From the sequence record OR539219.1: DNA of 64,000 nucleotides, one strand, 5' to 3'. Shown in pieces: positions 174-60,917 of the stretch; position 1 is the first letter of the stretch; each line of letters starts with the position of its first letter. The DNA comes from Escherichia phage vB-Eco-KMB39. The notes beneath the pieces are model-generated. The model searched no databases. It worked only from the letters and a program-made list of their open reading frames with translations, and had not been told where the DNA came from. The position numbers and the translations under genes are program-made.

Positions 174-1178
174 TTAGCTTACCAATTCAATCCAAGCCGG
201 ACGAAGTACATCTTGTACCATTTTAACTAATTCCTTTTTAATCAAAGAAGGATTATCCGCTTGAGTTAGAGTAATACCTTCACGAGAAGTTTCTTCCAAA
301 ATATCTTGAACAGTTAGTCCCATCACTTTTCCAAAATCCTTCGGACCAATTTCGCCAATTTTAGAAATAACGTTATTTACTCGGTTCAGTGTAACGTAAC
401 AAGCTAAAATTCCCAGCAATTTATTATCAGCTTCTGACAGTTCAACTTTAGCTTTAATAGGCTTATCAGACTTTTTCTTTTCACTAAATTTAGAGTTCTT
501 GCATTTAATCGCTACGCGATTGCCATTAGGCATCCAAGAAGGATAACAAGGTTTCAATACATATCCTTCAGCAGTAAATACTTCGCCTTTTGCTTCGGCA
601 TTCCAAACGCATTTATTTGCATCAACTAATCCAGCATGGTCTACTGTAAAATTATAATCTTGAACGACAGAATCTAAATCGTTTGGCAATTTAATAAGCT
701 CTTCAAATTTACCGCGACCCAAAAGTGGAGCCATTTTAAATTTAAATGTATTACAGAATGATTCCATCATATAATCATCGACATAAGTCACATCACCACT
801 TTCGGTAGTAACAATAATGTCAAATACATAAAAATCTTTATCACCATAATCGACATTCTTCTGAATGCCAGGTCCAGCAAATTCGCCAAAGACTTGATAA
901 GATACAACTGCCGAAGTTTCCATAATATCTTGTACTGCTTTAATGGAATCAGCGTAATTTTTTAGAATAATTTCATACCCAAAGAAATCTTCAGCAGGAA
1001 GAATAGGACCAGTACGTTTAGCACAAGTTGCTTTATCGCGTTCAATAATCAGTGAGAAATTTGTGCCATGAATCTTTTCACGAGCTACCCATTCGCCGCC
1101 AGTCAATCCTAAACTGTAAAGTTTTTCAATGAATTTAGAATTGTAATGATTTTCAAGACTGCTATACTTTTTAAACAT
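174..1178 (-). CDS. rnlB: RNA ligase 2 (Rnl2, gene 24.1)
   Basis: 334 aa ORF; sequence [42 protein letters not shown]... matches recalled T4 Rnl2 almost residue for residue, including the ligase KIHG lysine motif. Confidence 0.93.
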
Positions 1179-4534: not shown

Positions 4535-6043
4535 ATGGATATTAAAGTACATTTTCACGACTTCAGTCATGTACGCATCGATTGTGAAGAGAGCACGTTC
4601 CACGAATTAAGAGATTTCTTTTCGTTTGAGGCAGATGGATATAGGTTTAATCCTCGCTTCAGATATGGCAACTGGGATGGACGAATCCGTCTTTTAGATT
4701 ATAATCGTCTTCTTCCGTTCGGCTTAGTCGGGCAAATTAAAAAGTTCTGCGATAACTTTGGCTATAAAGCCTGGATTGACCCTCAAATTAATGAAAAAGA
4801 AGAATTATCAAGAAAAGATTTTGATGAATGGCTTTCTAAATTAGAAATCTATTCAGGAAATAAAAGAATTGAACCACACTGGTATCAAAAAGATGCAGTG
4901 TTCGAAGGATTAGTTAATCGTCGCAGAATTCTTAATCTTCCAACATCCGCAGGTAAATCTTTAATTCAAGCTTTGCTTGCACGTTATTATTTGGAAAATT
5001 ATGAAGGTAAAATTCTTATCATTGTTCCAACAACTGCTCTGACAACTCAGATGGCTGATGACTTTGTTGACTATCGTTTATTCAGTCATGCAATGATAAA
5101 GAAAATCGGCGGCGGAGCATCAAAAGATGATAAATATAAAAATGATGCACCAGTCGTCGTTGGTACATGGCAAACTGTAGTTAAACAACCGAAAGAATGG
5201 TTCTCACAGTTTGGAATGATGATGAATGATGAATGTCATCTTGCTACAGGAAAAAGTATTTCATCTATCATATCAGGATTAAATAACTGTATGTTTAAAT
5301 TTGGTCTATCAGGTTCATTACGTGATGGCAAAGCCAATATCATGCAGTATGTTGGAATGTTTGGTGAAATATTTAAACCAGTAACGACTTCTAAATTAAT
5401 GGAAGATGGACAAGTAACTGAGCTAAAAATTAATAGTATTTTTCTTCGCTATCCCGATGAGTTCACTACTAAATTAAAGGGAAAAACTTACCAAGAAGAA
5501 ATAAAAATTATTACTGGACTCAGTAAAAGAAATAAATGGATTGCTAAATTAGCTATTAAACTTGCACAAAAAGATGAAAACGCTTTTGTCATGTTTAAGC
5601 ATGTATCACATGGTAAAGCTATTTTCGATTTAATTAAAAATGAATACGATAAAGTTTATTACGTATCAGGGGAAGTTGATACCGAAACACGCAACGTAAT
5701 GAAAACCCTAGCTGAAAACGGTAAAGGAATAATTATAGTAGCTAGTTATGGTGTATTTTCTACTGGTATTTCAGTTAAAAATCTGCATCACGTTGTTTTA
5801 GCGCACGGTGTTAAATCAAAAATCATTGTATTACAAACAATCGGTCGTGTATTACGTAAGCATGGTTCTAAGACAATAGCAACAGTCTGGGATCTTATAG
5901 ATGACGCGGGCGTAGTTTCTAAATCAAAAACATCTTCTAAAAAATACTCGCATTTAAACTATCTTTTAAAACATGGACTTGATCGTATTCAGCGTTATGC
6001 TGATGAAAAGTTTAATTATGTGATGAAAGAGGTTAAACTTTGA
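4535..6043 (+). CDS. uvsW: UvsW RNA-DNA and DNA helicase
   Basis: 502 aa; SF2 helicase motifs (Walker A region PTSAGKS, DECH box MMMNDECHLA); sequence matches recalled T4 UvsW. Confidence 0.92.
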   Translation: MDIKVHFHDFSHVRIDCEESTFHELRDFFSFEADGYRFNPRFRYGNWDGRIRLLDYNRLLPFGLVGQIKKFCDNFGYKAWIDPQINEKEELSRKDFDEWLSKLEIYSGNKRIEPHWYQKDAVFEGLVNRRRILNLPTSAGKSLIQALLARYYLENYEGKILIIVPTTALTTQMADDFVDYRLFSHAMIKKIGGGASKDDKYKNDAPVVVGTWQTVVKQPKEWFSQFGMMMNDECHLATGKSISSIISGLNNCMFKFGLSGSLRDGKANIMQYVGMFGEIFKPVTTSKLMEDGQVTELKINSIFLRYPDEFTTKLKGKTYQEEIKIITGLSKRNKWIAKLAIKLAQKDENAFVMFKHVSHGKAIFDLIKNEYDKVYYVSGEVDTETRNVMKTLAENGKGIIIVASYGVFSTGISVKNLHHVVLAHGVKSKIIVLQTIGRVLRKHGSKTIATVWDLIDDAGVVSKSKTSSKKYSHLNYLLKHGLDRIQRYADEKFNYVMKEVKL

Positions 6044-6732
6044 ATTATAAATTAATATATGATAATTTAATTAATAGAGCCCAGAATCGGGCTCGCCTTA
6101 ATGGATACACTGAAACACATCATATAATTCCTAGATGTATGGGTGGTACAAATGATAAGTGTAATTTAGTAGAACTAACGGCTGAAGAACATTTTATAGC
6201 CCATAAACTTTTAGCTAAAATTCATCCAAACCATTACGGTATAATTAAAGCTGTTATATGTATGGGGATGAATTCAAATACTCATGAAAGACACGTCAAT
6301 AAATCTTACGCATGGGAACGTCGTAAAATGGCAGAACTTCAATCCGGCGAAGGTAATCCATTTTACGGAAAACACCATACGGAAGAACATAAACAATATA
6401 TGTCAAAACTCATGAAAAGTCGTCCAATTACATGGGGAAATAAAATTAGTAAAACTAAAAGAATGAACCCAACGAAATGGACTGAAGAAGCTAAAAGATT
6501 ACATTCAATCAATCAATCGGGTAAAAATAACGGCATGTATGGAAGGAAACATTCCGCTAAATCTATTCAGAAAATTAAAGATAACATGCCAGATAATTCA
6601 GGAGCTAATAACCCAGCTGCTAAACCTATAGAAGTAAATGGTGTTAAGTATAAATGTATGAAAGATGCTTCTAAAGCTACTGGATTATCAATGTACAAAC
6701 TAAGAATACTTAGAAAAACAGTTAATTTATAA
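6040..6732 (+). CDS. Free-standing HNH homing endonuclease (Mob family) inserted after uvsW; TTG start overlapping uvsW stop
   Basis: 230 aa; N-terminus MNYKLIYDNLINRAQ...TETHHIIPRCMGGTNDKCNLVELTAEEHFIAHKLL closely parallels MobE at 33608-34339; repeated NUMOD3-like GKHHTEEHK/GRKHSAKS motifs; only in-frame start is TTG at 6040 preceded by AAAGAGG. Confidence 0.8.
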   Translation: MNYKLIYDNLINRAQNRARLNGYTETHHIIPRCMGGTNDKCNLVELTAEEHFIAHKLLAKIHPNHYGIIKAVICMGMNSNTHERHVNKSYAWERRKMAELQSGEGNPFYGKHHTEEHKQYMSKLMKSRPITWGNKISKTKRMNPTKWTEEAKRLHSINQSGKNNGMYGRKHSAKSIQKIKDNMPDNSGANNPAAKPIEVNGVKYKCMKDASKATGLSMYKLRILRKTVNL

Positions 6733-15637: not shown

Positions 15638-17695
15638 CTACATTTTGAACTTTTTAGACATTCCGTTGATGTTAACCAAAGAAGCCAAGATTTGAGAAAC
15701 TTCGTTTTCCTCTTCTTTTGATTCTTCTACAAGAAATTGATTAAATCCAGCCATTGGACGAACTTCACCAGTTTCCATTAGATGGTCTCCATCATATACT
15801 GATTCTTCTAATTGTTCAGAAGGAGGAACGATTGTACCTTCAATTAGATACTTGTTATAAGCAGTTTCTTTCATAAAGTACGTACTTACTTTATTAATCT
15901 TCAGTAAAATTCCACGCGGTAGAATAACTTCAGCTTCTGATGGAAATCCTGATAAATGACCTGGAACGATAACTTTGATTCGCTCAGCTCCTTTAATTAC
16001 CATACCCACGCTAGTTTCAGCATCTTCATTAGCATATGTAGAATGACTACCCATATGCATCAAATCTTCTGCATCAACGGAATCTTCTCCTTCACCGGAA
16101 AATACTGCGCCGGAATCATCTAGAGCCATATAGTTTTTACCATGCTCACCGAAGATATTTGGTTTAAGCGATGTGGATACGAAGTTCTTGAAATAAAACA
16201 TTTTATTTTCAATGTTATGACGCAAAGTTTTAAAGGTAACTTCTTGTCCACGGTAAAGCGTAGTTCCTGGAGGAAGAACTGAACCTTTAGCGAATGCAGA
16301 ATCCAACGTCTCGATGTGCTTAATAGCACGTTCCATATATTCTTCACGGGTAGAATCTGGTTTACCCAAAAGGAACGAGTTCATTTCAACATATGAATCT
16401 GCACAATAATCTTCAATTACATCAGACTCAGCCTGAGTCAGTCCTTTTGGAGTTACTTCAGTGCTTGCGTATTCATATGCCTGAGCAGCAGATTCATTAA
16501 TCAATTTATAAATGCCATTCATGACAAATTGAATAATAGCTGTCTTTTCATCTGGCGTAGCTTTAGAACCTTTAACCAAATCATTGATAATTTTCTTAAT
16601 AACATCAAAGCTATTAGAAATATTAATGTCAGCAAGATCGCTTAAAATTTTATCGGTTTTATAATCAAAGAATTCTTTATTCTTTAAATATTCTTGAGAA
16701 CCTTGATATGTTATATCGCTCTGCAGCTTGATAGATGGATCACGTAAACGCGCATGGGCCAATGCGATATGATTTCGGAAGTTTTCTAGTTCATAATCGC
16801 TAGATTTAAAACGAGAAGCACTCCTCATACCACCAATAGCTCCTTTGCTGAAGTTTGAACCAATCTGGATAACGCCAGAGTTCATTGGTCCTTCTGCTTT
16901 ATATACCGGAACTTTAGATTCAAACTCTTGATATTTCTTGGCAGCGAAGCTATCACCCTGAAGTGAAGCATCAACAGTAGAATATTGAGCTTGTGCTGCT
17001 AATCGACGACTGATTTTAGTTTTCTGAATAACAGCTTGGTCCGTGCGTTTATCATTTTCTAAAGCAATAGAAGCAGCAACAGCGACAGCTTTAGGAACAG
17101 CATTTCCTGTTTTAACGTCTACATAAACATCACCGACCTTTGATTCAACTTTTGTGAATAACTCAGTTGAAATAGGAGGTACACCTGGAATGTCTTCTAA
17201 ATTGGCATTTTTACGGTAAACCATAATATATGCATACTTTTTATCATAGTCCCAGATTTCCTTTAAAAGAACATATCGACCTGCTCCTTTAGTACGTACT
17301 AAACGGTCAGCAATAACTTGCATTTGACGAGCTGCGCCATTTGTTTTACTCTTTAGTACACGGAATAAGCACGCGTCAATTTTGTACTGCTTCATTGTTT
17401 GAAGAGCAGTATCAAAAACAGCATTAATGACGCCAATTGGATTTCCACCCAAGTTTCTAAGCTTAACCAGCGATAATTTCTCGTTGACACCTATCATTAC
17501 GATATGCATCATTTTATCGCCTAGTTTAACGTTTTTATTTGTATCACCACCAGAGGTGTATGTACAAAATCTAAATCCAGGAAGCACGCTTTCTTCGCCG
17601 GCTTGGATAGCAAAAATTTGAGGTATTTTATGCTTAGGATTTAAGTTAACAACCGGCGCCGAAGCGCCGTCAAATAATTCTGTAATAAGTTCCAT
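15638..17695 (-). CDS. Alt-like ADP-ribosyltransferase paralog (intact)
   Basis: 685 aa; N-terminal ~220 aa ~65% identical to the adjacent Alt (MELITELFD...); C-terminal ART motifs R (TLYRGQEV), STS (NFVSTSLKP), ExE (EAEVILPRG). Confidence 0.85.
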   Translation of the reverse strand: MELITELFDGASAPVVNLNPKHKIPQIFAIQAGEESVLPGFRFCTYTSGGDTNKNVKLGDKMMHIVMIGVNEKLSLVKLRNLGGNPIGVINAVFDTALQTMKQYKIDACLFRVLKSKTNGAARQMQVIADRLVRTKGAGRYVLLKEIWDYDKKYAYIMVYRKNANLEDIPGVPPISTELFTKVESKVGDVYVDVKTGNAVPKAVAVAASIALENDKRTDQAVIQKTKISRRLAAQAQYSTVDASLQGDSFAAKKYQEFESKVPVYKAEGPMNSGVIQIGSNFSKGAIGGMRSASRFKSSDYELENFRNHIALAHARLRDPSIKLQSDITYQGSQEYLKNKEFFDYKTDKILSDLADINISNSFDVIKKIINDLVKGSKATPDEKTAIIQFVMNGIYKLINESAAQAYEYASTEVTPKGLTQAESDVIEDYCADSYVEMNSFLLGKPDSTREEYMERAIKHIETLDSAFAKGSVLPPGTTLYRGQEVTFKTLRHNIENKMFYFKNFVSTSLKPNIFGEHGKNYMALDDSGAVFSGEGEDSVDAEDLMHMGSHSTYANEDAETSVGMVIKGAERIKVIVPGHLSGFPSEAEVILPRGILLKINKVSTYFMKETAYNKYLIEGTIVPPSEQLEESVYDGDHLMETGEVRPMAGFNQFLVEESKEEENEVSQILASLVNINGMSKKFKM

Positions 17696-17698
17696 GAT

Positions 17699-19792
17699 TT
17701 ATCCTTGAACGAACTTGTAAGGCATGTTTGTAATATCTATGCAAGACGCAATAATTCCAAGAGATGATTCTACTTTCTGTTTAACATTTGATGAAACAAA
17801 TGATGCAAAGTCAACTTTGTCTTCTATTTCAATATCACCTGTCATTGCAACTACTTCGCCGGTTTCCATTAAACGGTCACCGTCATAAATTACCGATTCG
17901 GTGAGTTCTTCTGTGGTCATAACTTCAGCTTGAATGAGTTTTGTATTATTAGACGTGATTCCGTCATTATTAGAAGCATCAGTTATTTTATTAACTTTGA
18001 CCATCAATCCACGCGGTAGAATAACTTCAGCTTCTGTTGCTATTCCGAGACTTCCTGGATATACAACATTAACTTTATGAGCTCCATCAATTGCCCATCC
18101 TATTTGAACTTTAACGTATTCAGGATTTTCTTTATACGCTCTTATTTCGTTTGGATTAATAGTTATTCCTTCTTCATTTTTATCAACTGTTAATTCATTG
18201 CGAGCTTCTGGTTCTAAAAGACCAATACCAGCATGTGTAATTCCAAAACGTCCAAAAATGATAGGAGTTAAAGAAGTAGATACAAAATTTCTGAAATAGA
18301 ACACTTTATTTTTAACTAGTGCTTCGTATATAGGAGCAGTCATACTTTGAGCACGATAAACTGTAATGCCTTCTGGTATACGGTCACCATTTTCAAAAGC
18401 TGAATCTAAATTATTTATAGCAGATTCAATTTCTTTTTCACTCATTATATCATATCGTTCTGGATTGTAACGACCTAAAAGAAGATTATTGATGTCTGTA
18501 TATCCTGAACCACAATACTCTCTAATGCCGCGCTTTTGTGATGGAGTATATTTAGAACCATCACGGGCAATAGTAATATCAATCATTGGACCTGCACCAA
18601 TTCCGGAAAAGCTATAAATCATTCGTTTGAGGAATTTAGTTTTTGCTGCATTCCAGGCATTTTTAGTTATTTCTCCCCAGACTTCATCTGGCTGCCCTTT
18701 ACGAGTTTTATTATGTTTATCAAGCCAATTATCTTTATATTCTTCAAATAATTGATTAACAGCTGCTGCGTATTTCTCTAAACATTTTATTGAAGTAGTT
18801 GGTTCATTTTTAATCGCATTAAGAATTACATCTTTAATTTTTTCTGAAACTTCACCGACTTGACTCATTGGAAAGAATTTATAATCATAGTGAAGTTCAT
18901 CTGCCGTTCCTTCAGCAATAATTTTTGCTGCCTTAGTTTTAGAAGCTAATGAATTAATTCCAAGCTTCATTTCTTCTGCTTCGGGAATTAAAGGTGCAGT
19001 AGCAGGTTTATTGAAATTAGCTGCGGTAGATTCATACTTCTGGAATAATTCACTTTCAAATCTAGAAGATTCCAATGACTGACTTTGTGCAATTGCTCTA
19101 CGGGAAATTTTAACTTTAACGATTACGGCTTGGTCAGAACGTTTATCGTTTTCTTGTGCAATAGATGCAGCAATTGCCTCATTTTTGGTTACTTGAGCTC
19201 CAGTATCTTTATTAATATAAACATCACCGACCTTCGATTCAACTTTAGTAAAGAGCTCGGTACTAATTTCCGGAACTCCTGGAATGTCTTCTAGTGATAC
19301 ATTTTTGCGATGTATAAGAATATATGCATACTTTTTATCATAATCCCAGAGTTCCTTAAGAAGGACGTATCTGCCACCTGAACGACTACGGATAAGTCTA
19401 TCAGCAATAACTTGAATTTGTCGAGCTTGGCCAGCAGTTTTAGACTTAAGAATACGAAGCATACAAGCATCAATTTTATACTGACGCATTGTTTGCATTG
19501 CAACAGTAAAAACTGAATTGATATAATTAATTGGGCTTGGACCAAGACCTTTTAATTTAGCAATTGAACCTTTAGCAGTTAATGTAAAAGGAACAATATG
19601 CATCATTTTGTCGCCCATTTTTAAATCGCGATTAGTATCACCTCCAGATGTATAGGTACATAAACGAAAGCCTGGTTGTTCAATTGCATCATCAACATGA
19701 ACTGAAAAAATTTGTGGTATTTTCTTCTTTGGATTTAAGTTTGTAATCGGAAGAGTAGTATCTTCGTCAAATAATTCTGTAATAAGTTCCAT
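17699..19792 (-). CDS. alt: Alt ADP-ribosyltransferase (capsid-packaged, modifies host RNA polymerase)
   Basis: 697 aa; MELITELFDEDTTLPITNLNPKKKIPQIF...; ART motifs TVYRAQSM / NFVSTSLTP / EAEVILPRG; adjacent to gene 30 as in T4. Confidence 0.88.
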   Translation of the reverse strand: MELITELFDEDTTLPITNLNPKKKIPQIFSVHVDDAIEQPGFRLCTYTSGGDTNRDLKMGDKMMHIVPFTLTAKGSIAKLKGLGPSPINYINSVFTVAMQTMRQYKIDACMLRILKSKTAGQARQIQVIADRLIRSRSGGRYVLLKELWDYDKKYAYILIHRKNVSLEDIPGVPEISTELFTKVESKVGDVYINKDTGAQVTKNEAIAASIAQENDKRSDQAVIVKVKISRRAIAQSQSLESSRFESELFQKYESTAANFNKPATAPLIPEAEEMKLGINSLASKTKAAKIIAEGTADELHYDYKFFPMSQVGEVSEKIKDVILNAIKNEPTTSIKCLEKYAAAVNQLFEEYKDNWLDKHNKTRKGQPDEVWGEITKNAWNAAKTKFLKRMIYSFSGIGAGPMIDITIARDGSKYTPSQKRGIREYCGSGYTDINNLLLGRYNPERYDIMSEKEIESAINNLDSAFENGDRIPEGITVYRAQSMTAPIYEALVKNKVFYFRNFVSTSLTPIIFGRFGITHAGIGLLEPEARNELTVDKNEEGITINPNEIRAYKENPEYVKVQIGWAIDGAHKVNVVYPGSLGIATEAEVILPRGLMVKVNKITDASNNDGITSNNTKLIQAEVMTTEELTESVIYDGDRLMETGEVVAMTGDIEIEDKVDFASFVSSNVKQKVESSLGIIASCIDITNMPYKFVQG

Positions 19793-27968: not shown

Positions 27969-29379
<1,411 letters not shown>

Positions 29380-29383
<4 letters not shown>

Positions 29384-30814: not shown

Positions 30815-32402
<1,588 letters not shown>

Positions 32403-32429: not shown

Positions 32430-33608
32430 TTAAAAGTATTTTTTAAAACTCATCATAACTTTATCATCAACATCATTATCAATCTGTGCAACAAGATAAG
32501 ATGACAGTTCTACTTCTTGCGGCGCGGATTGAACATTATCAGAATTAAGGTATTCACGAATCCAAGGATATGGATGTTTAACCGGAGCATCGGTAATTGG
32601 GCATGGAAGACCACACTGTTTCATACGAGATACAGTTAAGTAATCAATAAAGCTCCACATGCTATTTGTATTTAATCCAGGAACATCGCCATCTTTAAAT
32701 AAATGAACTGCCCAATCTTTTTCTTGGCGGTTAACTTCCATGAAAATATCAACTGCTTCTTGTTCACACTCTTTGGCAATTTTAACCCATTCATCACCAT
32801 CAGTGCCAAGTTGAAGTTGACGAATAATATACTGGGTGCCTTTAAGGTGGAGTTGTTCGTCTCGAGCAATGAATTTCATAATCTTCGCATTACCTTCCAT
32901 GATTTCCATATTTTTATGGAAGTTGAAAGTACATGCAAAGGATACATAAAAACGAATAGCTTCCAGGGCATTGATAACATGAAGGCAGAGATAAAGCGAC
33001 TTCATCAATGCATATTTACATTCTTCCACATGCATAAGACTATTTGAATATGCATCTAAATCATATTCATTTTCGGAAAAACATTTAAAAATTTCTTTTG
33101 CATTTTCCCATTCGCGCGTCTTAACCAGAACATCATCATAATAACGACCAATAGATTCAGCACGTTTCATGATAGCTTTATCTAATACAATCTCATCAAA
33201 TACCTTTGACGGATCAGTATAAAGATTTCGCATAATATGAGTGTATGAACGACTGTGAATAGTTTCACTAAAAGTCCATGTAGCAACCCATGTATCAAGA
33301 CTTGGGTCTGAAATTAACGACATAAGTACAGCAGACGGTGCACGACCCTGAATGCTATCTAGAAGTGATTGATACTTCAGGTTATTAGTAAAAATATCTT
33401 GCTGATATTGAGGAAGCTTGTTAAATTGCGCAGCATCCATCATTAAGTTTACTTCTTCAGGACGCCAGAAAAATGACAACTGCTTTTCGGTTAAATCTTC
33501 AAAAACTTTATGACGTTGAATATCGTAACGCGCAATACCAAGACCTGAACCGAAGAACATAGGTTCTTTTAAAACATCAACTGGATTTGTATTAAAAACT
33601 GTAGACAT
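32430..33608 (-). CDS. nrdB: Ribonucleotide reductase small subunit, intronless
   Basis: 392 aa from ATG at 33608 (MSTVFNTNPVD...); di-iron ligand motifs; single uninterrupted ORF. Confidence 0.92.
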   Translation of the reverse strand: MSTVFNTNPVDVLKEPMFFGSGLGIARYDIQRHKVFEDLTEKQLSFFWRPEEVNLMMDAAQFNKLPQYQQDIFTNNLKYQSLLDSIQGRAPSAVLMSLISDPSLDTWVATWTFSETIHSRSYTHIMRNLYTDPSKVFDEIVLDKAIMKRAESIGRYYDDVLVKTREWENAKEIFKCFSENEYDLDAYSNSLMHVEECKYALMKSLYLCLHVINALEAIRFYVSFACTFNFHKNMEIMEGNAKIMKFIARDEQLHLKGTQYIIRQLQLGTDGDEWVKIAKECEQEAVDIFMEVNRQEKDWAVHLFKDGDVPGLNTNSMWSFIDYLTVSRMKQCGLPCPITDAPVKHPYPWIREYLNSDNVQSAPQEVELSSYLVAQIDNDVDDKVMMSFKKYF

Positions 33609-34339
33609 TAATTTTTCCTCTTTAAAATTCTGCCGCGTTTCCAACCTGGCGGTATAATATCATCTTTACCTATAAGCGTGCATTCACTTCCATTATTAAT
33701 CCATTTCTTACCGCGGATTCCTTTATAATCTCTTGGTTGTATTTTGTCAAACTTTGCATCAAGTTGATATGCCCATCGAAATCCATAGGCATATTGAAAT
33801 TTACCCTCAGCACAATATTTGATATTTGACCCGTTTCCATTAACTGACCTGGACGCTGCGGCAATAGAGTGAAAGGTTTCTATGAAATCCCCATCTAATG
33901 AGAATTTATGTATTTCGATAGATGGGCATGCATACCTATTCACGTTTGATACATGTTGTTTAGTTTCGTTTTTATGATGCTTGCCTAACATTCCTCTAGG
34001 ATGAGGATTATTTTTCCAATATTTCTTAAAGAAATCAGAATTAGCTTTAGCAAATAATTTTCTGTGCAAGCTATACAATCTGTTATTAATTCTATTACCA
34101 GCTTTATCTGTTGCCATTAACGTTAACGCAGAGGCAAGACCAAAATGGCCTTCATTTATCTTGCATAGTAATAGATGCGCTATAAAATGTTCTCTAGCTG
34201 TTAATTCAACTAAATTTTCTTTATCATCAGAACCTCCCATGCATTTAGGGACTATATGATGTGTCTCTTTATACTCGGATAAATGTTCCCGAGCCTGAGC
34301 TCGGGAAATTAGGTCATTATAGATTTTTTGATAATTCAT
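33608..34339 (-). CDS. mobE: HNH homing endonuclease MobE
   Basis: 243 aa; HNH motif region ETHHIVPKCMGGSDDKENLVELTAREHFIAH; sits between nrdA and nrdB as T4 mobE; stop overlaps nrdB start (TAATG). Confidence 0.82.
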   Translation of the reverse strand: MNYQKIYNDLISRAQAREHLSEYKETHHIVPKCMGGSDDKENLVELTAREHFIAHLLLCKINEGHFGLASALTLMATDKAGNRINNRLYSLHRKLFAKANSDFFKKYWKNNPHPRGMLGKHHKNETKQHVSNVNRYACPSIEIHKFSLDGDFIETFHSIAAASRSVNGNGSNIKYCAEGKFQYAYGFRWAYQLDAKFDKIQPRDYKGIRGKKWINNGSECTLIGKDDIIPPGWKRGRILKRKN

Positions 34340-39037: not shown

Positions 39038-39082
39038 TTAGTACCTTATATAAATTATAATACATTTTATGAAGCTAAATAA

Positions 39083-39445
39083 TCAATACGGTTTAGCATC
39101 AAATTTTCTTTCAATTTCAGGCGTGAAATACAATTCTTTACCGCGTTTGGAAAAGCGACCAATAATATGATAATTATTCTCATCAAACGTAATATTGCCA
39201 ATATCCATAGCTTTCAACCAAATATCGATATTTCTATCCAGTTTTATATCAAAATTCCAATACGGAGAACTATTACCGAAAATACTGCAAGCGGATTCAG
39301 TGCAATAACTGCTGCTATAAATCTTGTCTTTGGGAACTACTAATTGATAGACGCCTTTGATAAACTGAGGACCCTGCCATTTTGGTTGTTTCGCGTCTTT
39401 TTCTAATAGAATAGGATAATAATTAAAGTTCATATTTTCCGCCAC
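39083..39445 (-). CDS. Hypothetical protein inserted between frd and td (not expected from T4 gene order)
   Basis: 120 aa ORF MAENMNFNYYPILLEKDAKQPKWQGPQF...; no recognised motifs. Confidence 0.55.
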   Translation of the reverse strand: MAENMNFNYYPILLEKDAKQPKWQGPQFIKGVYQLVVPKDKIYSSSYCTESACSIFGNSSPYWNFDIKLDRNIDIWLKAMDIGNITFDENNYHIIGRFSKRGKELYFTPEIERKFDAKPY

Positions 39446-39453
39446 GCGTTATT

Positions 39454-50973: not shown

Positions 50974-53900
50974 ATGGCTACTTTAAAACAAATACAATTT
51001 AAAAGAAGCAAAACTGCAGGAGCACGTCCTGCCGCTTCAGTATTAGCCGAAGGTGAATTGGCTATAAACTTAAAAGACCGTGTACTTTTTACTAAAGATG
51101 ACCAAGGAAATATTATTGATCTGGGTTTTGCTAAAGGCGGTAGTATTGACGGGAATGTTATTCATACAGGCAATTATAACCAAACTGGCGATTATACTTT
51201 AAATGGCGTCTTCACTCAGACTGGTAATTTTAATTTAACTGGTATTGCTCGAGTAACTCGCGATATTATTGCCGCTGGGCAGATTATGACTGAAGGCGGA
51301 GAACTTATTACAAAAAGTTCAGGTACAGCGCATGTTCGTTTTTTCGATAACAATAGTCGCGAACGCGGAATCATTTATGCCCCGGCTAATGATGGTTTAA
51401 CTACACAAGTACTTAATATCAGGGTTCAAGACTACGCCGCTGGTAGCGAAAGCACTTATGCATTTTCAGGCAGTGGACTATTTACTTCACCTGAAGTATC
51501 AGCATGGAAATCTATTTCGTCTCCACAAATTCTGACCAACAAAGTCATTACTAATAATAAATCTACGGGTGATTATGACATCTATTCGATGGCAGACAAT
51601 GTTCCATTGTCTGAAAGCACTACTGCTATTAATCATCTTCGTGTCATGCGTAATGCCGTTGGTTCTGGTATTTTCCATGAAGTTAAAGATAATGATGGAA
51701 TAACTTGGTATGCAGGTGATGGACTTGACACCTATCTTTGGTCATTTACTTGGAGCGGCGGAATTAAATCAAGTCACTCAATTTCTATTGGTTTAACACC
51801 TGGTAATAAAGATTATTCAATATTAGGACCATCTAGTATTGCTTTAGGAGATAATGATACTGGATTTAAATGGCATCAAGATGGATATTATTTTAGCGTT
51901 AATAATGGAACAAAAACGTTTTTATTTAGTCCTAGCGAAACAACTAGCCTAAGAAAATTTGTAGCTGGATATTCTACTAACGGAACCGATTTAACTACTC
52001 CTCCAACTGAAAATTATGCTCTTGCTACTGTCGTGACATACCACGATAATAACGCGTTTGGAGATGGTCAGACTCTTTTAGGATATTATCAAGGCGGTAA
52101 CTATCATCACTATTTCCGCGGCAAGGGTACTACAAACATTAATACTCACGGCGGTTTGTTAGTTACTCCTGGTAATATTGACGTTATTGGTGGTTCTGTT
52201 AATATCGATGGTAGAAATAATGCTTCTACACTGATGTTTAGAGGTAACACAACTGGTAGCAGTTCAGTTGATAATATGACAATTTCCGTGTGGGGTAATA
52301 CCTTTACTAATCCTAGCGAAGGCACCCGTAAAAATGTCATGGAAATTTCTGACGCAACTAGTTGGATGAGCTATATTCAACGAACAACTGCAGGTAAAGT
52401 CGAATCGGTTATAAATGGCACCCAGATTGTTAATGAAAACTTGACAGTAGTAAAAAATGCTACATTTGACGGTACAATCAGCGCAGCCGGTGAAATCGCG
52501 ACAAATGCTGTAAATGGTCTTCGCATTTGGAACGCAGATTATGGAGCTATTTTTAGACGTTCAGAAGGAAGTCTTCATATTATTCCAACTGCTTACGGTG
52601 AAGGTAAATATGGCGATATCGGTCCACTTCGCCCGTTTAGTATGGCTTTAGATACTGGTAAAGTTACTATTCCAGATTTACAATCAAGTTACAATACGTT
52701 CGCTGCTAACGGTTATATTAAATTTGTTGGTCATGGAGCGGGTGCCGGCGGTTATGACATTCAATATGCTCAAGCGGCTCCTATTTTCCAGGAAATTGAT
52801 GATGATGCTGTAAGCAAATATTATCCTATTGTTAAACAGAAGTTTTTAAATGGTAAAGCCGTTTGGTCTTTAGGTACTGAAATTAATTCGGGTACATTCG
52901 TTATTCATCATCTGAAAGAAGATGGTTCACAAGGCCATACGTCTCGTTTTAATCAAGACGGTACTGTTAACTTCCCAGATAACGTTTCTGTCGGCGGCGG
53001 TGAAGCTACTATTGCTCGTAATGGTAACATCTGGTCTGATATCTGGAAAACGTTTACTTCAGCAGGCGACGTAACTAATATTCACGATGCTATTGCTACT
53101 CGCGTTGCCAAAGAAGGCGACACGATGACCGGCACTCTTTGGATTAATAAAGATGCTGCTGGAATAGTTCTTAATCCTCCTTTGACCAGTGATTCATCAT
53201 TTATTCGTTCTGATACGGCCGGGGCCAATAATTGGTATATTGGTAAAGGCGGTGCCGACAATGGTCTAGGTTTTTACAGTTACATTACACAAGGCGGTGT
53301 ATACATAACAAATAACGGTGAAATATCGCTTTCTCCTCAAGGACAAGGAACATTTAATTTTAATAGAGACCGCCTTTATATAAATGCTAGTCAATGGGTT
53401 GCACATAAATCTGGCGCTTGGGGCGACCAATGGGGCTTAGAAGCTCCTGTATTTGTGGATTTTGGTAGCGTTGGTAATGATAGTTATTATCCTATTATCA
53501 AAGGAAAATCTGGTATTACTAACGAAGGATACGTATCCGGTGTAGATTTTGGTATGCGCCGCATCACTAATACATGGGCCCAAGGTATTATTCGTGTAGG
53601 TAACCAGGAAAATGGCTCCGACCCGCAAGCTATCTATGAATTCCACTCTAATGGTACTTTTTATGCTCCGAGCTTACTTAAGAGCAACAGAGTATCGGCT
53701 GGTGGTGGAGACCCTGTATGGACTGGACCATGTATTGTTATCGGCGATAACGACACCGGATTGGTATGGGAAGCAGACGGTATTTTCAACGCATATGCAA
53801 ACGGTCAAGGTGTGTTTAGTTTCCGCGCTGGTCTTGCTCAGACATTTGGCAACGTGTCCCTTAACGTTAACGCCGGTATGTACGTTCGTGATAACATTGA

Positions 53901-54243
53901 TGTTAACGACGTTTATATTCGTTCTGATATTCGTTGTAAGTCAGAAATTAAGCTTATTAAGAACGCTCAAGAGAAATCTAAACTCTTAGGTGGTTATACT
54001 TATCTGCTTAAAAACTCTGTCACAGACGAAGTTAAACCGTCTGCAGGTTTAATTGCTCAGGAAGTTCAAGAAGTATTGCCTGAACTTGTTTCTGAAGATA
54101 AAGAGACCGGCTTACTTCGTTTAAACTATAACGGTATTATCGGTTTAAATACTGCTACTATCAACGAGCATACTGACGAAATCAAGGAATTGAAATCTGA
54201 AATTGCTGAATTGAAAGCATTAATTAAATCATTGATAAAATAA
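50974..54243 (+). CDS. 37: Long tail fibre distal subunit gp37 with C-terminal intramolecular-chaperone-like domain
   Basis: 1089 aa; conserved N-terminus MATLKQIQFKRSKTAGARPAAS...; C-terminal ~106 aa begins SDIRCKSEIK... and ends in coiled coil. Confidence 0.9.
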   Translation: MATLKQIQFKRSKTAGARPAASVLAEGELAINLKDRVLFTKDDQGNIIDLGFAKGGSIDGNVIHTGNYNQTGDYTLNGVFTQTGNFNLTGIARVTRDIIAAGQIMTEGGELITKSSGTAHVRFFDNNSRERGIIYAPANDGLTTQVLNIRVQDYAAGSESTYAFSGSGLFTSPEVSAWKSISSPQILTNKVITNNKSTGDYDIYSMADNVPLSESTTAINHLRVMRNAVGSGIFHEVKDNDGITWYAGDGLDTYLWSFTWSGGIKSSHSISIGLTPGNKDYSILGPSSIALGDNDTGFKWHQDGYYFSVNNGTKTFLFSPSETTSLRKFVAGYSTNGTDLTTPPTENYALATVVTYHDNNAFGDGQTLLGYYQGGNYHHYFRGKGTTNINTHGGLLVTPGNIDVIGGSVNIDGRNNASTLMFRGNTTGSSSVDNMTISVWGNTFTNPSEGTRKNVMEISDATSWMSYIQRTTAGKVESVINGTQIVNENLTVVKNATFDGTISAAGEIATNAVNGLRIWNADYGAIFRRSEGSLHIIPTAYGEGKYGDIGPLRPFSMALDTGKVTIPDLQSSYNTFAANGYIKFVGHGAGAGGYDIQYAQAAPIFQEIDDDAVSKYYPIVKQKFLNGKAVWSLGTEINSGTFVIHHLKEDGSQGHTSRFNQDGTVNFPDNVSVGGGEATIARNGNIWSDIWKTFTSAGDVTNIHDAIATRVAKEGDTMTGTLWINKDAAGIVLNPPLTSDSSFIRSDTAGANNWYIGKGGADNGLGFYSYITQGGVYITNNGEISLSPQGQGTFNFNRDRLYINASQWVAHKSGAWGDQWGLEAPVFVDFGSVGNDSYYPIIKGKSGITNEGYVSGVDFGMRRITNTWAQGIIRVGNQENGSDPQAIYEFHSNGTFYAPSLLKSNRVSAGGGDPVWTGPCIVIGDNDTGLVWEADGIFNAYANGQGVFSFRAGLAQTFGNVSLNVNAGMYVRDNIDVNDVYIRSDIRCKSEIKLIKNAQEKSKLLGGYTYLLKNSVTDEVKPSAGLIAQEVQEVLPELVSEDKETGLLRLNYNGIIGLNTATINEHTDEIKELKSEIAELKALIKSLIK

Positions 54244-54246
54244 TAA

Positions 54247-55056
<810 letters not shown>

Positions 55057-55086
55057 TTTGAATAAATATCCTTAAAAGGAGGGTCT

Positions 55087-58600: not shown

Positions 58601-58750
58601 TTACTGCATGACTGTGATAACTGTCATGATAACACGTTGAATTCCGAACGCAAGAAGACCTCCTGCTACGGCTGGAACAACACCTAAACCCGCCAGTAAA
58701 ATGCTACCGGATACTAATGCAGCGCTTGTAATACCTATGAATGGACTCAT
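58601..58750 (-). CDS. Small hydrophobic membrane protein downstream of gene 52, below ORF-track cutoff
   Basis: Hand-translated 49 aa MSPFIGITSAALVSGSILLAGLGVVPAVAGGLLAFGIQRVIMTVITVMQ; ATGA overlap with gene 52 stop. Confidence 0.5.
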   Translation of the reverse strand: MSPFIGITSAALVSGSILLAGLGVVPAVAGGLLAFGIQRVIMTVITVMQ

Positions 58751-60075
58751 TTGATTTCCTCTAAATCTTTGGTGTATTCTGTAACTACATCAGTAGTTTT
58801 CCAATATTCGTTTTCTTCTTTCTTAGCTTTAGCTTCTTCAGCAAGTTTCTTTGCTTCATCAGAAGTCATATGAAAAATATTCATACCAACTAGTTTATCA
58901 ACATAAGAAGAATACATATCAATTTTAGAAAGTTCTTCAGTCAGTTCTTTACGAGTTTTACCCTGCACGACGATTTCACCTGAAATTACTTTCTTAATGA
59001 AATGCGCCTTGGCAAAGGCTAAACGAAAAGCTGATTCAGTTTCTTTGATTTTGTTATCAATTCGTTTTTGGACATAAGTTTTACGAACTTCAACGAAGTC
59101 TTTGATTAAATCAACTACGTTATCGTAAACTTGTAGTTTTCCTTTCTCATTAATAACCGTAATATTCTGAGAACGACGCTCAATCAACCCGAAGTCTTTC
59201 ATAATTTTTGCGTGGCGTTCTTCTTCATTATCGCTCAAAGAATATTCTTTACGGAATTTAACTTTAAAGCCAAAACCATGCTCACCACAAGCATCATCCC
59301 ATGTAATGAAGCCTTTATCTTCAAGTGGGTCTAAGATTTTACTCACATAAGTTTCACGATCATACTTATACGGAATCTCAGTGATATGCATTTGAGTTCG
59401 TGAAGTAAACTTATATGTTCCACGAATTTCATATTGCCCATCAATTTCAACGACTTCACCACGAAATTCTGGGAATTCTACCTTCGGTTTAGTTACTTTC
59501 TTTCCTTGAAGAGCTTGTAATACAGCTTTCTTAACAGAAGAAACACTATGAGGAAGAATGTAAGTTGCATAACCAGTTGCAATACCGGAAATACCATTAA
59601 GAAGAACAGTAGGAATAATAGGCAAATAGAAAGCAGGCGGAATGTGTTCTTTATCTTGATGTACCGGAGCATATTCAGTATCTTTATATACGCTATAGAA
59701 ATTTTTACTTACACGAGCAAAAATATAACGACTTGCCGCTGCTTTTTGAACGGTACGAGAACCAAAGTTTCCTTGACCATCTAACAAAGGAAAGTTATTA
59801 TTCCAAGTATTAGCCATCAAAGCCCCCGCGTCTTGTGCAGAGTTTTCGCCATGATGATATCCAAGGTCCGCTACACCACCTGCAATAGAAGCGAGTTTGT
59901 GAAACTTATCTTTATTCCCTCGTGCCAAATCAAGAGCTCGAGCAATAACAAATCGTTGAACTGGCTTAAATCCATCAATCATATTTGGAATAGCACGATT
60001 TTCAACCGTGTACATAGCATAAGCCAATGCTTCATTATCAATGATACTTTTTAAATCGCGATTATTCAGTTGCAT
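58747..60075 (-). CDS. 52: DNA topoisomerase II medium subunit gp52
   Basis: 442 aa (same as T4 gp52); GyrA-like N-terminal region with candidate catalytic tyrosine. Confidence 0.9.
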   Translation of the reverse strand: MQLNNRDLKSIIDNEALAYAMYTVENRAIPNMIDGFKPVQRFVIARALDLARGNKDKFHKLASIAGGVADLGYHHGENSAQDAGALMANTWNNNFPLLDGQGNFGSRTVQKAAASRYIFARVSKNFYSVYKDTEYAPVHQDKEHIPPAFYLPIIPTVLLNGISGIATGYATYILPHSVSSVKKAVLQALQGKKVTKPKVEFPEFRGEVVEIDGQYEIRGTYKFTSRTQMHITEIPYKYDRETYVSKILDPLEDKGFITWDDACGEHGFGFKVKFRKEYSLSDNEEERHAKIMKDFGLIERRSQNITVINEKGKLQVYDNVVDLIKDFVEVRKTYVQKRIDNKIKETESAFRLAFAKAHFIKKVISGEIVVQGKTRKELTEELSKIDMYSSYVDKLVGMNIFHMTSDEAKKLAEEAKAKKEENEYWKTTDVVTEYTKDLEEIK

Positions 60076-60079
60076 AAAT

Positions 60080-60220
60080 TTACCATACTAGTGAATGTAG
60101 TGCCATAATAACATCAGAAATGAAAAGCACGACTTGAATTAATCCGAACATTACTCCATAATATAGTGCTACTAATAAAGTAGCAAGGGCTAATGAATAG
60201 CCCAAGATTTTCTTAATCAT
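60080..60220 (-). CDS. Small hydrophobic membrane peptide, below ORF-track cutoff
   Basis: Hand-translated 46 aa MIKKILGYSLALATLLVALYYGVMFGLIQVVLFISDVIMALHSLVW. Confidence 0.45.
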   Translation of the reverse strand: MIKKILGYSLALATLLVALYYGVMFGLIQVVLFISDVIMALHSLVW

Positions 60221-60371
60221 TAGTAGATAACAACACAAATGTTAAATATGCACACATACCCTGAGCTAAAGCTTGCGAAAACACACTGCTGGCATCAATA
60301 CAGATAGTTAAAACACATGCTACTATCCAACAAATAAATGAAATAACTCCTAATAATTTTGCAATATTCAT
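60213..60371 (-). CDS. ac: Small membrane protein, probable Ac (acridine sensitivity)
   Basis: Hand-translated 52 aa MNIAKLLGVISFICWIVACVLTICIDASSVFSQALAQGMCAYLTFVLLSTND; position between 52 and stp; T4 ac is ~51 aa. Confidence 0.5.
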   Translation of the reverse strand: MNIAKLLGVISFICWIVACVLTICIDASSVFSQALAQGMCAYLTFVLLSTND

Positions 60372-60378
60372 ATTTTCC

Positions 60379-60459
60379 TCACTGGCGTCCGAAGACGCCT
60401 TTAGTTTTAAGATTGTTACGATAGAACTGCATCACATGTTCGTTATGGAAATTACTCAT
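60379..60459 (-). CDS. stp: Stp peptide (activator of host PrrC anticodon nuclease)
   Basis: Hand-translated 26 aa [26 protein letters not shown], matching the recalled T4 Stp; start overlaps ndd stop (TAATG). Confidence 0.8.
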
Positions 60460-60917
60460 TAATATGCCTGCAAAACGAATTTAAAATTATCAGCCAACAT
60501 ACGGTTCATTTCTTCAAGTGTTTGATACTCAGAATGATGATTACGAGTAAACGCTAAAGATAACTGTCCTTTTCCAAATCCCGTCGTCAGAGGTTTCATC
60601 TTAGAAGCAGGCAGATAAAATACTGTGTATGGAACATTGTTATTTGCAATAGTACGTGCAAGCTGAGACCGACGTTGACGAATATGACTTAGAACTGCAC
60701 TGAATCCTTGCTTAGAACGCTGATTACCTACATAAAATCGTGCAGACACACATGGATTACTAAATGGACGACCATCTAATTTACTCACTAAAAAGTAAAA
60801 TCCAGGTTTAGATAAAAAGTCTTTATGTGGAACTCCCAAAAACCATTCACCGCCCTTGATTGTGCCAATAACAGTAGCGCCTGCATTATTCAGATCAGTA
60901 ACAGTCATGTATTTCAT
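60459..60917 (-). CDS. ndd: Ndd nucleoid disruption protein
   Basis: 152 aa from ATG at 60917 ([45 protein letters not shown]...). Confidence 0.88.

What the first reader, a model, noticed from the sequence alone, without database searches (positions are those of the whole stretch)
60379..60459. Stp peptide gene present together with pseT and rnlA, the tRNA-cleavage trigger and repair system
A 26 aa ORF ([26 protein letters not shown]) between ndd and ac matches my recollection of T4 Stp, which activates the host PrrC anticodon nuclease. The window also encodes polynucleotide kinase/phosphatase (28158-29066) and RNA ligase 1 (30815-31939), which repair the cleaved tRNA, and RNA ligase 2 (174-1178). 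The full offence and repair circuit is therefore in this segment. stp is absent from the ORF track because of its size.
Basis: partly seen in the sequence, partly recalled or inferred. Interest (0 to 1): 0.4.

Follow-up and report, generated by a model that had tools for sequence, protein, structure and literature searches.

The report
T4 stp gene, exactly as known
The 26-codon gene is an exact copy of phage T4's Stp peptide, sitting in the usual place in a T4-like phage genome alongside intact copies of the two tRNA-repair enzymes, so it is a correct but entirely ordinary textbook feature.

Summary
The ORF is real. It lies on the minus strand at 60379..60459 and encodes [26 protein letters not shown], 26/26 identical to T4 Stp (NP_049878). 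It matches Pfam PF08133 over its full length (E 2e-21) and PHROG 6763. It sits between ndd (stop overlaps the stp start, TAATG) and ac, the same order as in T4. The window is a Tequatrovirus segment collinear with T4 108.5-168.9 kb but is not T4 itself (about 95% DNA identity to the best records). pseT (96.3% to T4), rnlA (98.7%) and rnlB (98.5%) are intact, and all checked catalytic residues are kept. The gene is on the minus strand. Stp is primarily an inhibitor of the host type IC restriction enzyme EcoprrI, and the tRNA-Lys nuclease PrrC that it unmasks is host-encoded and not in the window. RNA ligase 2 has no known role in this circuit. Coding is supported by strong purifying selection on the N-terminal core across distant homologues (pN/pS 0.03-0.18). 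Novelty: already known. One side lead: unannotated Stp-like 25-27 aa ORFs are common in Drexlerviridae, Kagunavirus and other phages of 40-53 kb.

The parts
60379..60459 (-). stp: 26-aa peptide [26 protein letters not shown] plus TGA stop
   Evidence: ORF. 26/26 identical to T4 NP_049878. PF08133 at 75.3 bits. phrog_6763. One synonymous difference from T4 DNA.
60384..60399 (-). GGCGUC-UUCG-GACGCC hairpin inside stp codons 21-26, just upstream of the GAGG ribosome-binding site of ac
   Evidence: Fold -11.5 kcal/mol, z -2.5. On the + strand it scores as terminator-like because a T-run follows. Present in T4-type and VR7-type stp, absent from T2-type and siphovirus copies. Function not established.
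60459..60917 (-). ndd (nucleoid disruption protein); its TAA stop overlaps the stp ATG (TAATG)
   Evidence: PF06591 E 1e-93. About 95% identical to T4 Ndd with a one-residue insertion. Sequence.
60213..60371 (-). ac (acridine resistance, small membrane protein)
   Evidence: 51/52 identical to T4 Ac. phrog_2501. T4 annotation.
58747..60075 (-). gene 52, topoisomerase II medium subunit (downstream context; 52.1 lies at about 60080..60220)
   Evidence: ORF list. Same order as in T4 and RB3.
28158..29063 (-). pseT: polynucleotide 5'-kinase / 3'-phosphatase (Pnkp), 301 aa from the T4-equivalent Met.
   Evidence: PF25109 HAD_PNKP E 4e-59 plus a P-loop kinase domain. 96.3% identical to T4 Pnkp. K15, S16, D35, R38, R126, D165, D167, R176, R213, D254, K258, D277 and D278 are all kept.
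30815..31939 (-). rnlA (gene 63): RNA ligase 1
   Evidence: PF09511 plus PF20819. 98.7% identical to T4 Rnl1. K99 and the other ligase-motif residues are kept.
174..1178 (-). rnlB (24.1): RNA ligase 2. Present, but not a known member of the Stp/PrrC circuit.
   Evidence: PF09414 plus PF18043. 98.5% identical to T4 Rnl2, K35 etc. kept. Biological role unknown (PMC3884662).

Best explanation
This is the stp gene of a T4-like (Tequatrovirus) phage. It is co-transcribed on the minus strand with ndd and ac, and is probably translated by coupling to ndd (UAAUG overlap, weak AGG Shine-Dalgarno). It yields a 26-residue peptide identical to T4 Stp. By identity with T4 (inferred, not tested here), the peptide binds the host type IC restriction-modification complex EcoprrI (HsdR2M2S) and blocks its DNA restriction. 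In the rare E. coli strains whose hsd locus also carries prrC, this change releases the latent PrrC anticodon nuclease. That step needs GTP hydrolysis, with dTTP as co-activator. PrrC cuts tRNA-Lys 5' of the wobble base, leaving 2',3'-cyclic phosphate and 5'-OH ends. The phage's Pnkp (pseT) heals these ends and Rnl1 (rnlA) reseals the anticodon loop, so infection proceeds. Both repair genes are intact in this window. Shown here: sequence identity, family membership, synteny, intact catalytic residues, and protein-level purifying selection. Inferred from the literature: every biochemical step.
For: 26/26 identity to T4 Stp. PF08133 E 2e-21 and phrog_6763 E 4e-21. The ndd-stp-ac-52.1-52 order is identical to T4 and RB3. 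The window is collinear with T4 108463-168903. 422 phage records carry a peptide at least 99% identical. The residues where loss-of-function suppressors cluster (4-14) and the functional N-proximal 18 residues (PMC3014915 section 31) are unchanged. Synonymous changes dominate within Tequatrovirus (0 non-synonymous against 1-3 synonymous versus T4 and RB3). Against distant homologues pN/pS is 0.03-0.18, so the peptide, not the DNA, is what is conserved. Pnkp, Rnl1 and Rnl2 are 96-99% identical to T4 with catalytic residues kept. Mechanism: PMC3014915, PMC1484252, PMC12707154, PMC12409349.
Against: Nothing in the sequence argues against it. Limits: no expression or activity data exist for this particular phage. 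How Stp inhibits EcoprrI is still described as unknown (PMC12707154), and no solved structure contains the peptide. The Shine-Dalgarno element is weak (AGG at -10..-8), so translation relies on the T4 precedent and on coupling. Whether this phage ever meets a prr+ host is unknown.
Confidence: 0.96

Rival explanations
1. The conserved element is mainly an RNA or DNA signal, and the 26-aa ORF is incidental. The signal would be the GC-rich UUCG hairpin at 60384-60399, acting as an mRNA stabiliser, as a regulator of ac translation, or as a terminator for plus-strand (antisense) transcripts.
For: A stable hairpin (-11.5 kcal/mol, z -2.5) sits 6 nt upstream of the ac ribosome-binding site. On the + strand it is followed by TTTAGTTTTA and scores as terminator-like. 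One GenBank record annotates a 'terminator' there (H33).
Against: The hairpin covers only codons 21-26, the part of Stp reported to be dispensable. It is absent from T2-type and all siphovirus stp copies, which still keep the peptide's N-terminal core through many synonymous changes. T4 genetics and synthetic-peptide work show that the peptide itself is active (PMC3014915). The hairpin may be an additional overlaid feature, not an alternative.
Confidence: 0.03
2. A chance short ORF in an intergenic gap between ndd and ac, with no product.
For: Short ORFs of 20-30 codons are abundant in this AT-rich DNA: 42 ORFs of at least 20 aa in 3 kb. Most deposited genomes do not annotate it.
Against: Exact identity to a genetically and biochemically characterised peptide. 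Curated family hits at E about 1e-21. Constant length (25-27 aa) and constant start position in dozens of unrelated phage backgrounds. pN/pS is far below 1.
Confidence: 0.005
3. In glucosyl-HMC-protected T-even phages, the peptide's selected function is something other than relief of EcoprrI DNA restriction. An example would be neutralising another Hsd-scaffolded or type-I-like defence, with PrrC activation a side effect.
For: T-even DNA is already refractory to type I restriction (general knowledge). Even so, stp is kept essentially invariant in hundreds of Tequatrovirus genomes. Other defences built on HsdMS scaffolds exist, e.g. Ronin. The family also occurs in many unrelated phages.
Against: There is no direct evidence. 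The only demonstrated targets are the type IC enzymes EcoprrI and EcoR124I. Its presence in siphoviruses is explained just as well by plain anti-restriction.
Confidence: 0.1

Closest known systems
Bacteriophage T4 Stp (NP_049878; Pfam PF08133, PHROG 6763)
   Same: Identical 26-aa sequence, same flanking genes (ndd upstream with TAATG overlap, ac downstream), same strand logic, same 3' hairpin.
   Different: One synonymous nucleotide change (CAC to CAT, His8). The host genome is a different Tequatrovirus, about 95% identical to the nearest records over 25 kb.
T4 tRNA repair pair Pnkp (pseT) + Rnl1 (rnlA/gene 63)
   Same: Same domain architecture, 96.3% and 98.7% identity, all catalytic residues kept, same map positions relative to cd, alc and denA.
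   Different: 11 and 5 substitutions, all away from the catalytic residues checked. A 315-bp extra gene (29063..29383, phrog_2364, unknown function) is inserted immediately upstream of pseT relative to T4.
Other anti-restriction proteins that are sensed by abortive-infection systems (T7 Ocr sensed by PARIS; anti-restriction proteins sensed by Ronin)
   Same: Same logic: a phage inhibitor of R-M acts as the trigger for a tRNA-cleaving or lethal host effector (PMC12409349; bioRxiv 10.1101/2023.04.06.535777).
   Different: Unrelated sequences and sizes. Ocr is a DNA mimic, whereas Stp is a 26-aa peptide with an unknown binding mode, specific for type IC enzymes.
Stp-like small ORFs of Drexlerviridae, Kagunavirus and Klebsiella siphoviruses (mostly unannotated; phrog_28068 'unknown function' may be this group)
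   Same: Length of 25-27 aa, with the N-terminal core MS[NS][FWH]HNEH[VI]MQ[FWL][YH]R.
   Different: Different C-terminal tails, no ndd/ac neighbours, no UUCG hairpin, and no full Pnkp + Rnl1 repair pair seen nearby. The adjacent 'polynucleotide kinase' of phage AS5 is only the HAD phosphatase domain. Function untested.

Membership tests
Stp / anticodon nuclease activator family (PF08133) | Match to the curated family profile above its gathering score, over the full length | tested here: met
   75.3 bits against a cut-off of 25, residues 1-26 on profile 1-26, E 2e-21. phrog_6763 E 4.4e-21.
Stp / anticodon nuclease activator family (PF08133) | Free-standing ORF of about 26 aa with its own ATG and stop | tested here: met
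   ATG at 60459-60457 and TGA at 60381-60379 on the minus strand, 26 codons.
Stp / anticodon nuclease activator family (PF08133) | The functional N-proximal 18 residues, including positions 4-14 where loss-of-function suppressors cluster, are intact | tested here: met
   26/26 identical to T4. Functional map from PMC3014915 section 31.
Stp / anticodon nuclease activator family (PF08133) | T-even genomic position: between ndd and ac, upstream of 52.1 and 52 | tested here: met
Stp / anticodon nuclease activator family (PF08133) | The peptide inhibits type IC restriction (EcoprrI, EcoR124I) and activates latent PrrC | not testable with these tools
   Inferred from sequence identity with the T4 peptide, for which this was shown (Penner et al. 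1995, as summarised in PMC3014915).
T4-type Pnkp (bifunctional 5'-kinase / 3'-phosphatase) | N-terminal P-loop kinase domain plus C-terminal HAD (DxDxT) phosphatase domain with catalytic residues | tested here: met
   PF13671 plus PF25109. K15, S16, D35, R38, R126, D165, D167, R176, R213, D254, K258, D277 and D278 are conserved. The residue list is from my own knowledge of Shuman-lab mutagenesis.
Rnl1 family RNA ligase (T4 gene 63) | Nucleotidyltransferase domain with motif I lysine (K99) plus the Rnl1-specific C-terminal tRNA-specificity domain | tested here: met
   PF09511 plus PF20819. K99, E159, K240, K242 etc. are conserved, and identity to T4 is 98.7%.
Rnl2 family RNA ligase (T4 gp24.1) | Adenylyltransferase domain (K35) plus the Rnl2 C-terminal domain | tested here: met
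   PF09414 plus PF18043. 98.5% identical to T4. Membership in the Stp/PrrC circuit is NOT established for this enzyme (PMC3884662).
Complete Prr system (EcoprrI hsdMSR + prrC + phage Stp/Pnkp/Rnl1) | The anticodon nuclease PrrC and the type IC Hsd proteins are present | tested here: not met
   The window is collinear with phage T4 108.5-168.9 kb, and T4's annotation there has no prrC or hsd gene. These are host genes (PMC1484252). Only the phage half of the circuit is in the window. No dedicated PrrC search of the non-T4 inserts was run.

The most novel reading that the evidence does not exclude
Stp may not be a T-even peculiarity. It could be one member of a horizontally mobile family of 25-27-aa anti-restriction peptides that is mostly unannotated and is common in Drexlerviridae, Kagunavirus and Klebsiella siphoviruses. 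The lineage-specific C-terminal tails might tune the peptides to different type I (or Hsd-scaffolded) defence complexes. If so, the T-even copy, which looks redundant in glucosyl-HMC DNA phages, could be retained for a target other than EcoprrI DNA cleavage. The window's own gene adds nothing new to this; it is only the entry point.
Probability: 0.2. Interest if true: 0.45.

Novelty: already known. Interest (0 to 1): 0.08.

Why it matters
For this window it matters only as annotation. stp falls below the usual gene-caller length cut-off and is left out of most deposited Tequatrovirus genomes, so flagging it is correct housekeeping. Biologically it predicts the T4 phenotypes for this phage: it should grow on prr+ E. 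coli while pseT and rnlA are intact, and pseT or rnlA mutants should be restricted there unless stp is also mutated. Nothing here opens a new question about the Stp/PrrC system. The one thing with some forward value is the side observation that Stp-like peptides are widespread outside T-even phages. That could help in working out how such a small peptide disables type IC enzymes, which a 2025 review still calls unknown (PMC12707154).

Tried and rejected
- Rfam scan of the whole window at gathering thresholds: no hits at all, so there is no described RNA family at the stp hairpin.
- PDB sequence search with the peptide at E up to 10: no hits, so there is no structural information on Stp.
- Literature search for a recent Stp/EcoprrI/PrrC structure: none found.
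- tblastn against plasmids: a single 44-kb E. coli record (CP088689) with a Kagunavirus-type peptide, not followed up. There is no sign that Stp is a plasmid anti-restriction gene.
- Sigma-70 promoter scan around ndd and stp: the number of hits (17) is not clearly above the shuffled expectation (12 +/- 3.4), and nothing convincing lies directly upstream of stp. This fits delayed-early read-through transcription as reported for T4 (PMC3014915).
- Folding of the whole stp mRNA region: not more structured than shuffles (z -1.4). Only the local hairpin stands out.
- Two IMG/VR contigs of about 50 kb carry the T4-identical peptide, which first suggested siphovirus copies. They proved to be T-even fragments with ndd and ac next door.
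- The 'polynucleotide kinase' near siphovirus stp-like ORFs might have marked a parallel repair kit. In phage AS5 it is only the phosphatase domain.
- PMC130525 (the Rnl2 discovery paper) is not held. PMC3884662 was used instead.
- Structure prediction was not used because the peptide is below the 30-aa minimum.

Full report
**Observation.** The window has an ATG-initiated 26-codon ORF at 60379..60459 on the minus strand. It translates to [26 protein letters not shown]. On the minus strand, ndd lies upstream (60459..60917) and its TAA stop overlaps the stp start as TAATG. ac lies downstream (60213..60371), followed by 52.1 and gene 52 (58747..60075).

**Identity.**
- Against the annotated T4 reference (NC_000866, stp at 165505..165585, NP_049878) the peptide is identical at 26 of 26 positions.
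- The 81-nt gene differs from T4 by one synonymous base and from RB3 by three synonymous bases.
- Pfam PF08133 ('Anticodon nuclease activator family') matches end to end at 75.3 bits against a cut-off of 25 (E 2e-21).
- PHROG 6763 ('activator of host PrrC lysyl-tRNA endonuclease') matches at E 4e-21.
- A tblastn search of 50,697 phage records finds 422 records with a peptide at least 99% identical, nearly all Escherichia, Shigella, Yersinia or Salmonella T-even phages. Most of them annotate only ndd at that spot.

**What the window is.** It is collinear with T4 coordinates 108,463-168,903, so it is a Tequatrovirus segment running from gene 24/rnlB to rIIB. It is not T4 itself. The best 25-kb match in the phage collection is about 95% identical, and there are the usual mosaic differences, listed under things noticed in passing.

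**The repair genes.** All three are on the minus strand.

| Gene | Coordinates | Product | Identity to T4 | Pfam domains |
|---|---|---|---|---|
| pseT | 28158..29063 | Pnkp, 301 aa | 96.3% | P-loop kinase domain + PF25109 phosphatase domain |
| rnlA | 30815..31939 | Rnl1, 374 aa | 98.7% | PF09511 + PF20819 |
| rnlB | 174..1178 | Rnl2, 334 aa | 98.5% | PF09414 + PF18043 |

- I checked the catalytic residues I know from the mutagenesis literature, and none of them is changed. The residue lists rest on my own knowledge. For Pnkp these were K15, S16, D35, R38, R126, D165, D167, R176, R213, D254, K258, D277 and D278. For Rnl1 they were R54, K75, F77, K99, G102, K119, E159, E227, G228, K240 and K242. 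For Rnl2 they were E34, K35, H37, R55, E99, F119, D120, E204, K225 and K227.

**Is the ORF really coding?** Apart from identity with a peptide that has been characterised genetically and biochemically, comparative data show that selection acts on the protein.
- Divergent copies come from VR7 (Gaprivervirus), a Kagunavirus, three Drexlerviridae and a Klebsiella siphovirus.
- All of these except the Braunvirinae phage ZL19 start with ATG at the same codon and run 25-26 aa. The ZL19 homologue lies inside an annotated 30-aa ORF with a five-residue N-terminal extension and has Ser where the others have the initiating Met.
- The ATG-started copies keep the core MS[NS][FWH]HNEH[VI]MQ[FWL][YH]R. The ZL19 copy also has Gly in place of the Glu of that core. 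The third codon positions are largely scrambled.
- For codons 2-18, pN/pS against the window is 0.03-0.18.
- A degenerate-pattern scan of IMG/VR gave 53 loci. In all but two of them the ORF is 25-27 aa.

**Mechanism (from the literature, inferred here by identity).**
- It relieves restriction by the type IC enzymes EcoprrI and EcoR124I, but not by the type IA enzymes EcoKI and EcoBI.
- Loss-of-function suppressors cluster at residues 4-14. The N-proximal 18 residues carry the activity, and deleting the last 8 codons only moderately reduces it (PMC3014915 section 31).
- PrrC is held latent by association with EcoprrI. Stp, with GTP hydrolysis and dTTP, unmasks it, and tRNA-Lys is cut 5' of the wobble base.
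- Pnkp heals the ends and Rnl1 seals them (PMC3014915 sections 30-35; PMC1484252).
- A 2025 review still calls the mode of EcoprrI inhibition unknown (PMC12707154). No PDB chain matches the peptide.
- Rnl2's biological role is stated to be unknown. It prefers nicked duplex RNA, unlike Rnl1, which is specific for anticodon-loop breaks (PMC3884662). Listing rnlB as part of the circuit is therefore not justified.
- PrrC and EcoprrI are host genes, so the window holds only the phage half of the circuit.

**An overlaid RNA feature.**
- Codons 21-26 of stp form GGCGUC-UUCG-GACGCC, a six-pair GC stem with a UUCG tetraloop (-11.5 kcal/mol, z -2.5). It ends 6 nt before the GAGG ribosome-binding site of ac.
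- On the plus strand the same hairpin is followed by a T-run and scores as terminator-like.
- It is present in T4-type and VR7-type stp, but not in T2-type or siphovirus copies. It lies in the part of the peptide reported to be dispensable.
- I treat it as an additional, lineage-specific feature, not as an alternative explanation of the ORF. Its function is not established.

**Comparison and novelty.** Every defining feature of the Stp family that can be tested in silico is met, and only the biochemical activity cannot be tested. This is a textbook system in a close T4 relative, so it is already known and of low interest.

**Side lead.**
- Stp-like small ORFs, mostly unannotated or labelled 'hypothetical', occur in Kagunavirus, Drexlerviridae (Nouzillyvirus, Henuseptimavirus, Braunvirinae), Klebsiella phage YX3973 and about 40 IMG/VR contigs of 40-53 kb.
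- Their C-terminal tails are lineage-specific: ...KTKGVFGK, ...RIKKILNSTNC and ...RIKAIINSYEV.
- They are not next to ndd or ac.
- The 'polynucleotide kinase' near the copy in phage AS5 is only the HAD phosphatase half of Pnkp.
- My two literature searches that touched on this found no paper linking Stp to these phage groups. That is weak evidence of novelty, because the library is partial.
- A plausible reading (inference) is that Stp is a mobile anti-type-IC-restriction peptide. Its natural use would be in phages that are not known to carry T-even-type DNA modification (I did not check this for these phages).

Noticed in passing
L005:2501-2578; L006:1975-2052; L007:2501-2581; L008:2501-2581; L012:2483-2575; IMG/VR loci L014-L065: Stp-like 25-27-aa ORFs, unannotated or labelled 'hypothetical', occur in Kagunavirus, several Drexlerviridae genera, Klebsiella phage YX3973 and about 40 viral contigs of 40-53 kb. 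They share the core MS[NS][FWH]HNEH[VI]MQ[FWL][YH]R. C-terminal tails are lineage-specific, and pN/pS against the window is 0.03-0.18. They are not linked to ndd or ac. The library searches found no paper linking Stp to these phage groups.
   Followed up: partly
window 60384-60399: A GGCGUC-UUCG-GACGCC tetraloop hairpin is embedded in the last six codons of stp, just before the ac ribosome-binding site. On the opposite (+) strand it is followed by a T-run and looks like an intrinsic terminator. It is present in T4-type and VR7-type stp but not in T2-type or siphovirus copies.
   Followed up: partly
window 29063-29383 (-): A 106-aa gene is inserted exactly between pseT and pseT.1 relative to T4. 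Its stop overlaps the pseT start (ATGATG). It matches phrog_2364 (unknown function, E 4e-57) and has no Pfam hit.
   Followed up: partly
window ~32932-33609: Relative to T4, about 600 bp of the nrdB region (T4 138457-139058, which holds the nrdB group I intron with defective I-TevIII) is missing. This phage therefore appears to have an intron-less nrdB. The adjoining nrdB/mobE region (33609-34170) is also diverged.
   Followed up: no
window 6041-6715: A segment of about 670 bp inserted near the 3' end of uvsW is absent at that place in T4. Its first 190 bp resemble T4 mobE at 72%, which suggests an HNH homing-endonuclease-like insertion.
   Followed up: no
window 15657-18986 and 51140-55062: The alt / alt.-1 to alt.-3 region and the distal tail-fibre region (gene 37 C-terminus and gene 38) have little or no DNA similarity to T4. 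This is typical mosaic or host-range variation.
   Followed up: no
window 39040-39449: About 400 bp between td and frd do not align with T4, which suggests a small inserted or replaced gene.
   Followed up: no
L007:3310-3846 (Enterobacter phage AS5): The gene annotated 'polynucleotide kinase', about 0.8 kb downstream of the Stp-like ORF, contains only the Pnkp-type HAD phosphatase domain (PF25109) and no P-loop kinase domain. The annotation is misleading, and no complete tRNA-healing enzyme is evident there.
   Followed up: partly
plasmid record CP088689.1 40360-40434: A 44-kb E. coli 'plasmid' from a blood isolate carries a Stp-like ORF (24 of 25 aligned residues identical). Its size and content suggest a phage or phage-plasmid genome deposited as a plasmid.
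   Followed up: no
whole window: Rfam at gathering thresholds reports no RNA family anywhere in the 64 kb. This is despite the td region aligning full-length with T4's intron-containing td, so the td group I intron, which carries the I-TevI ORF, seems to escape the Intron_gpI model.
   Followed up: no
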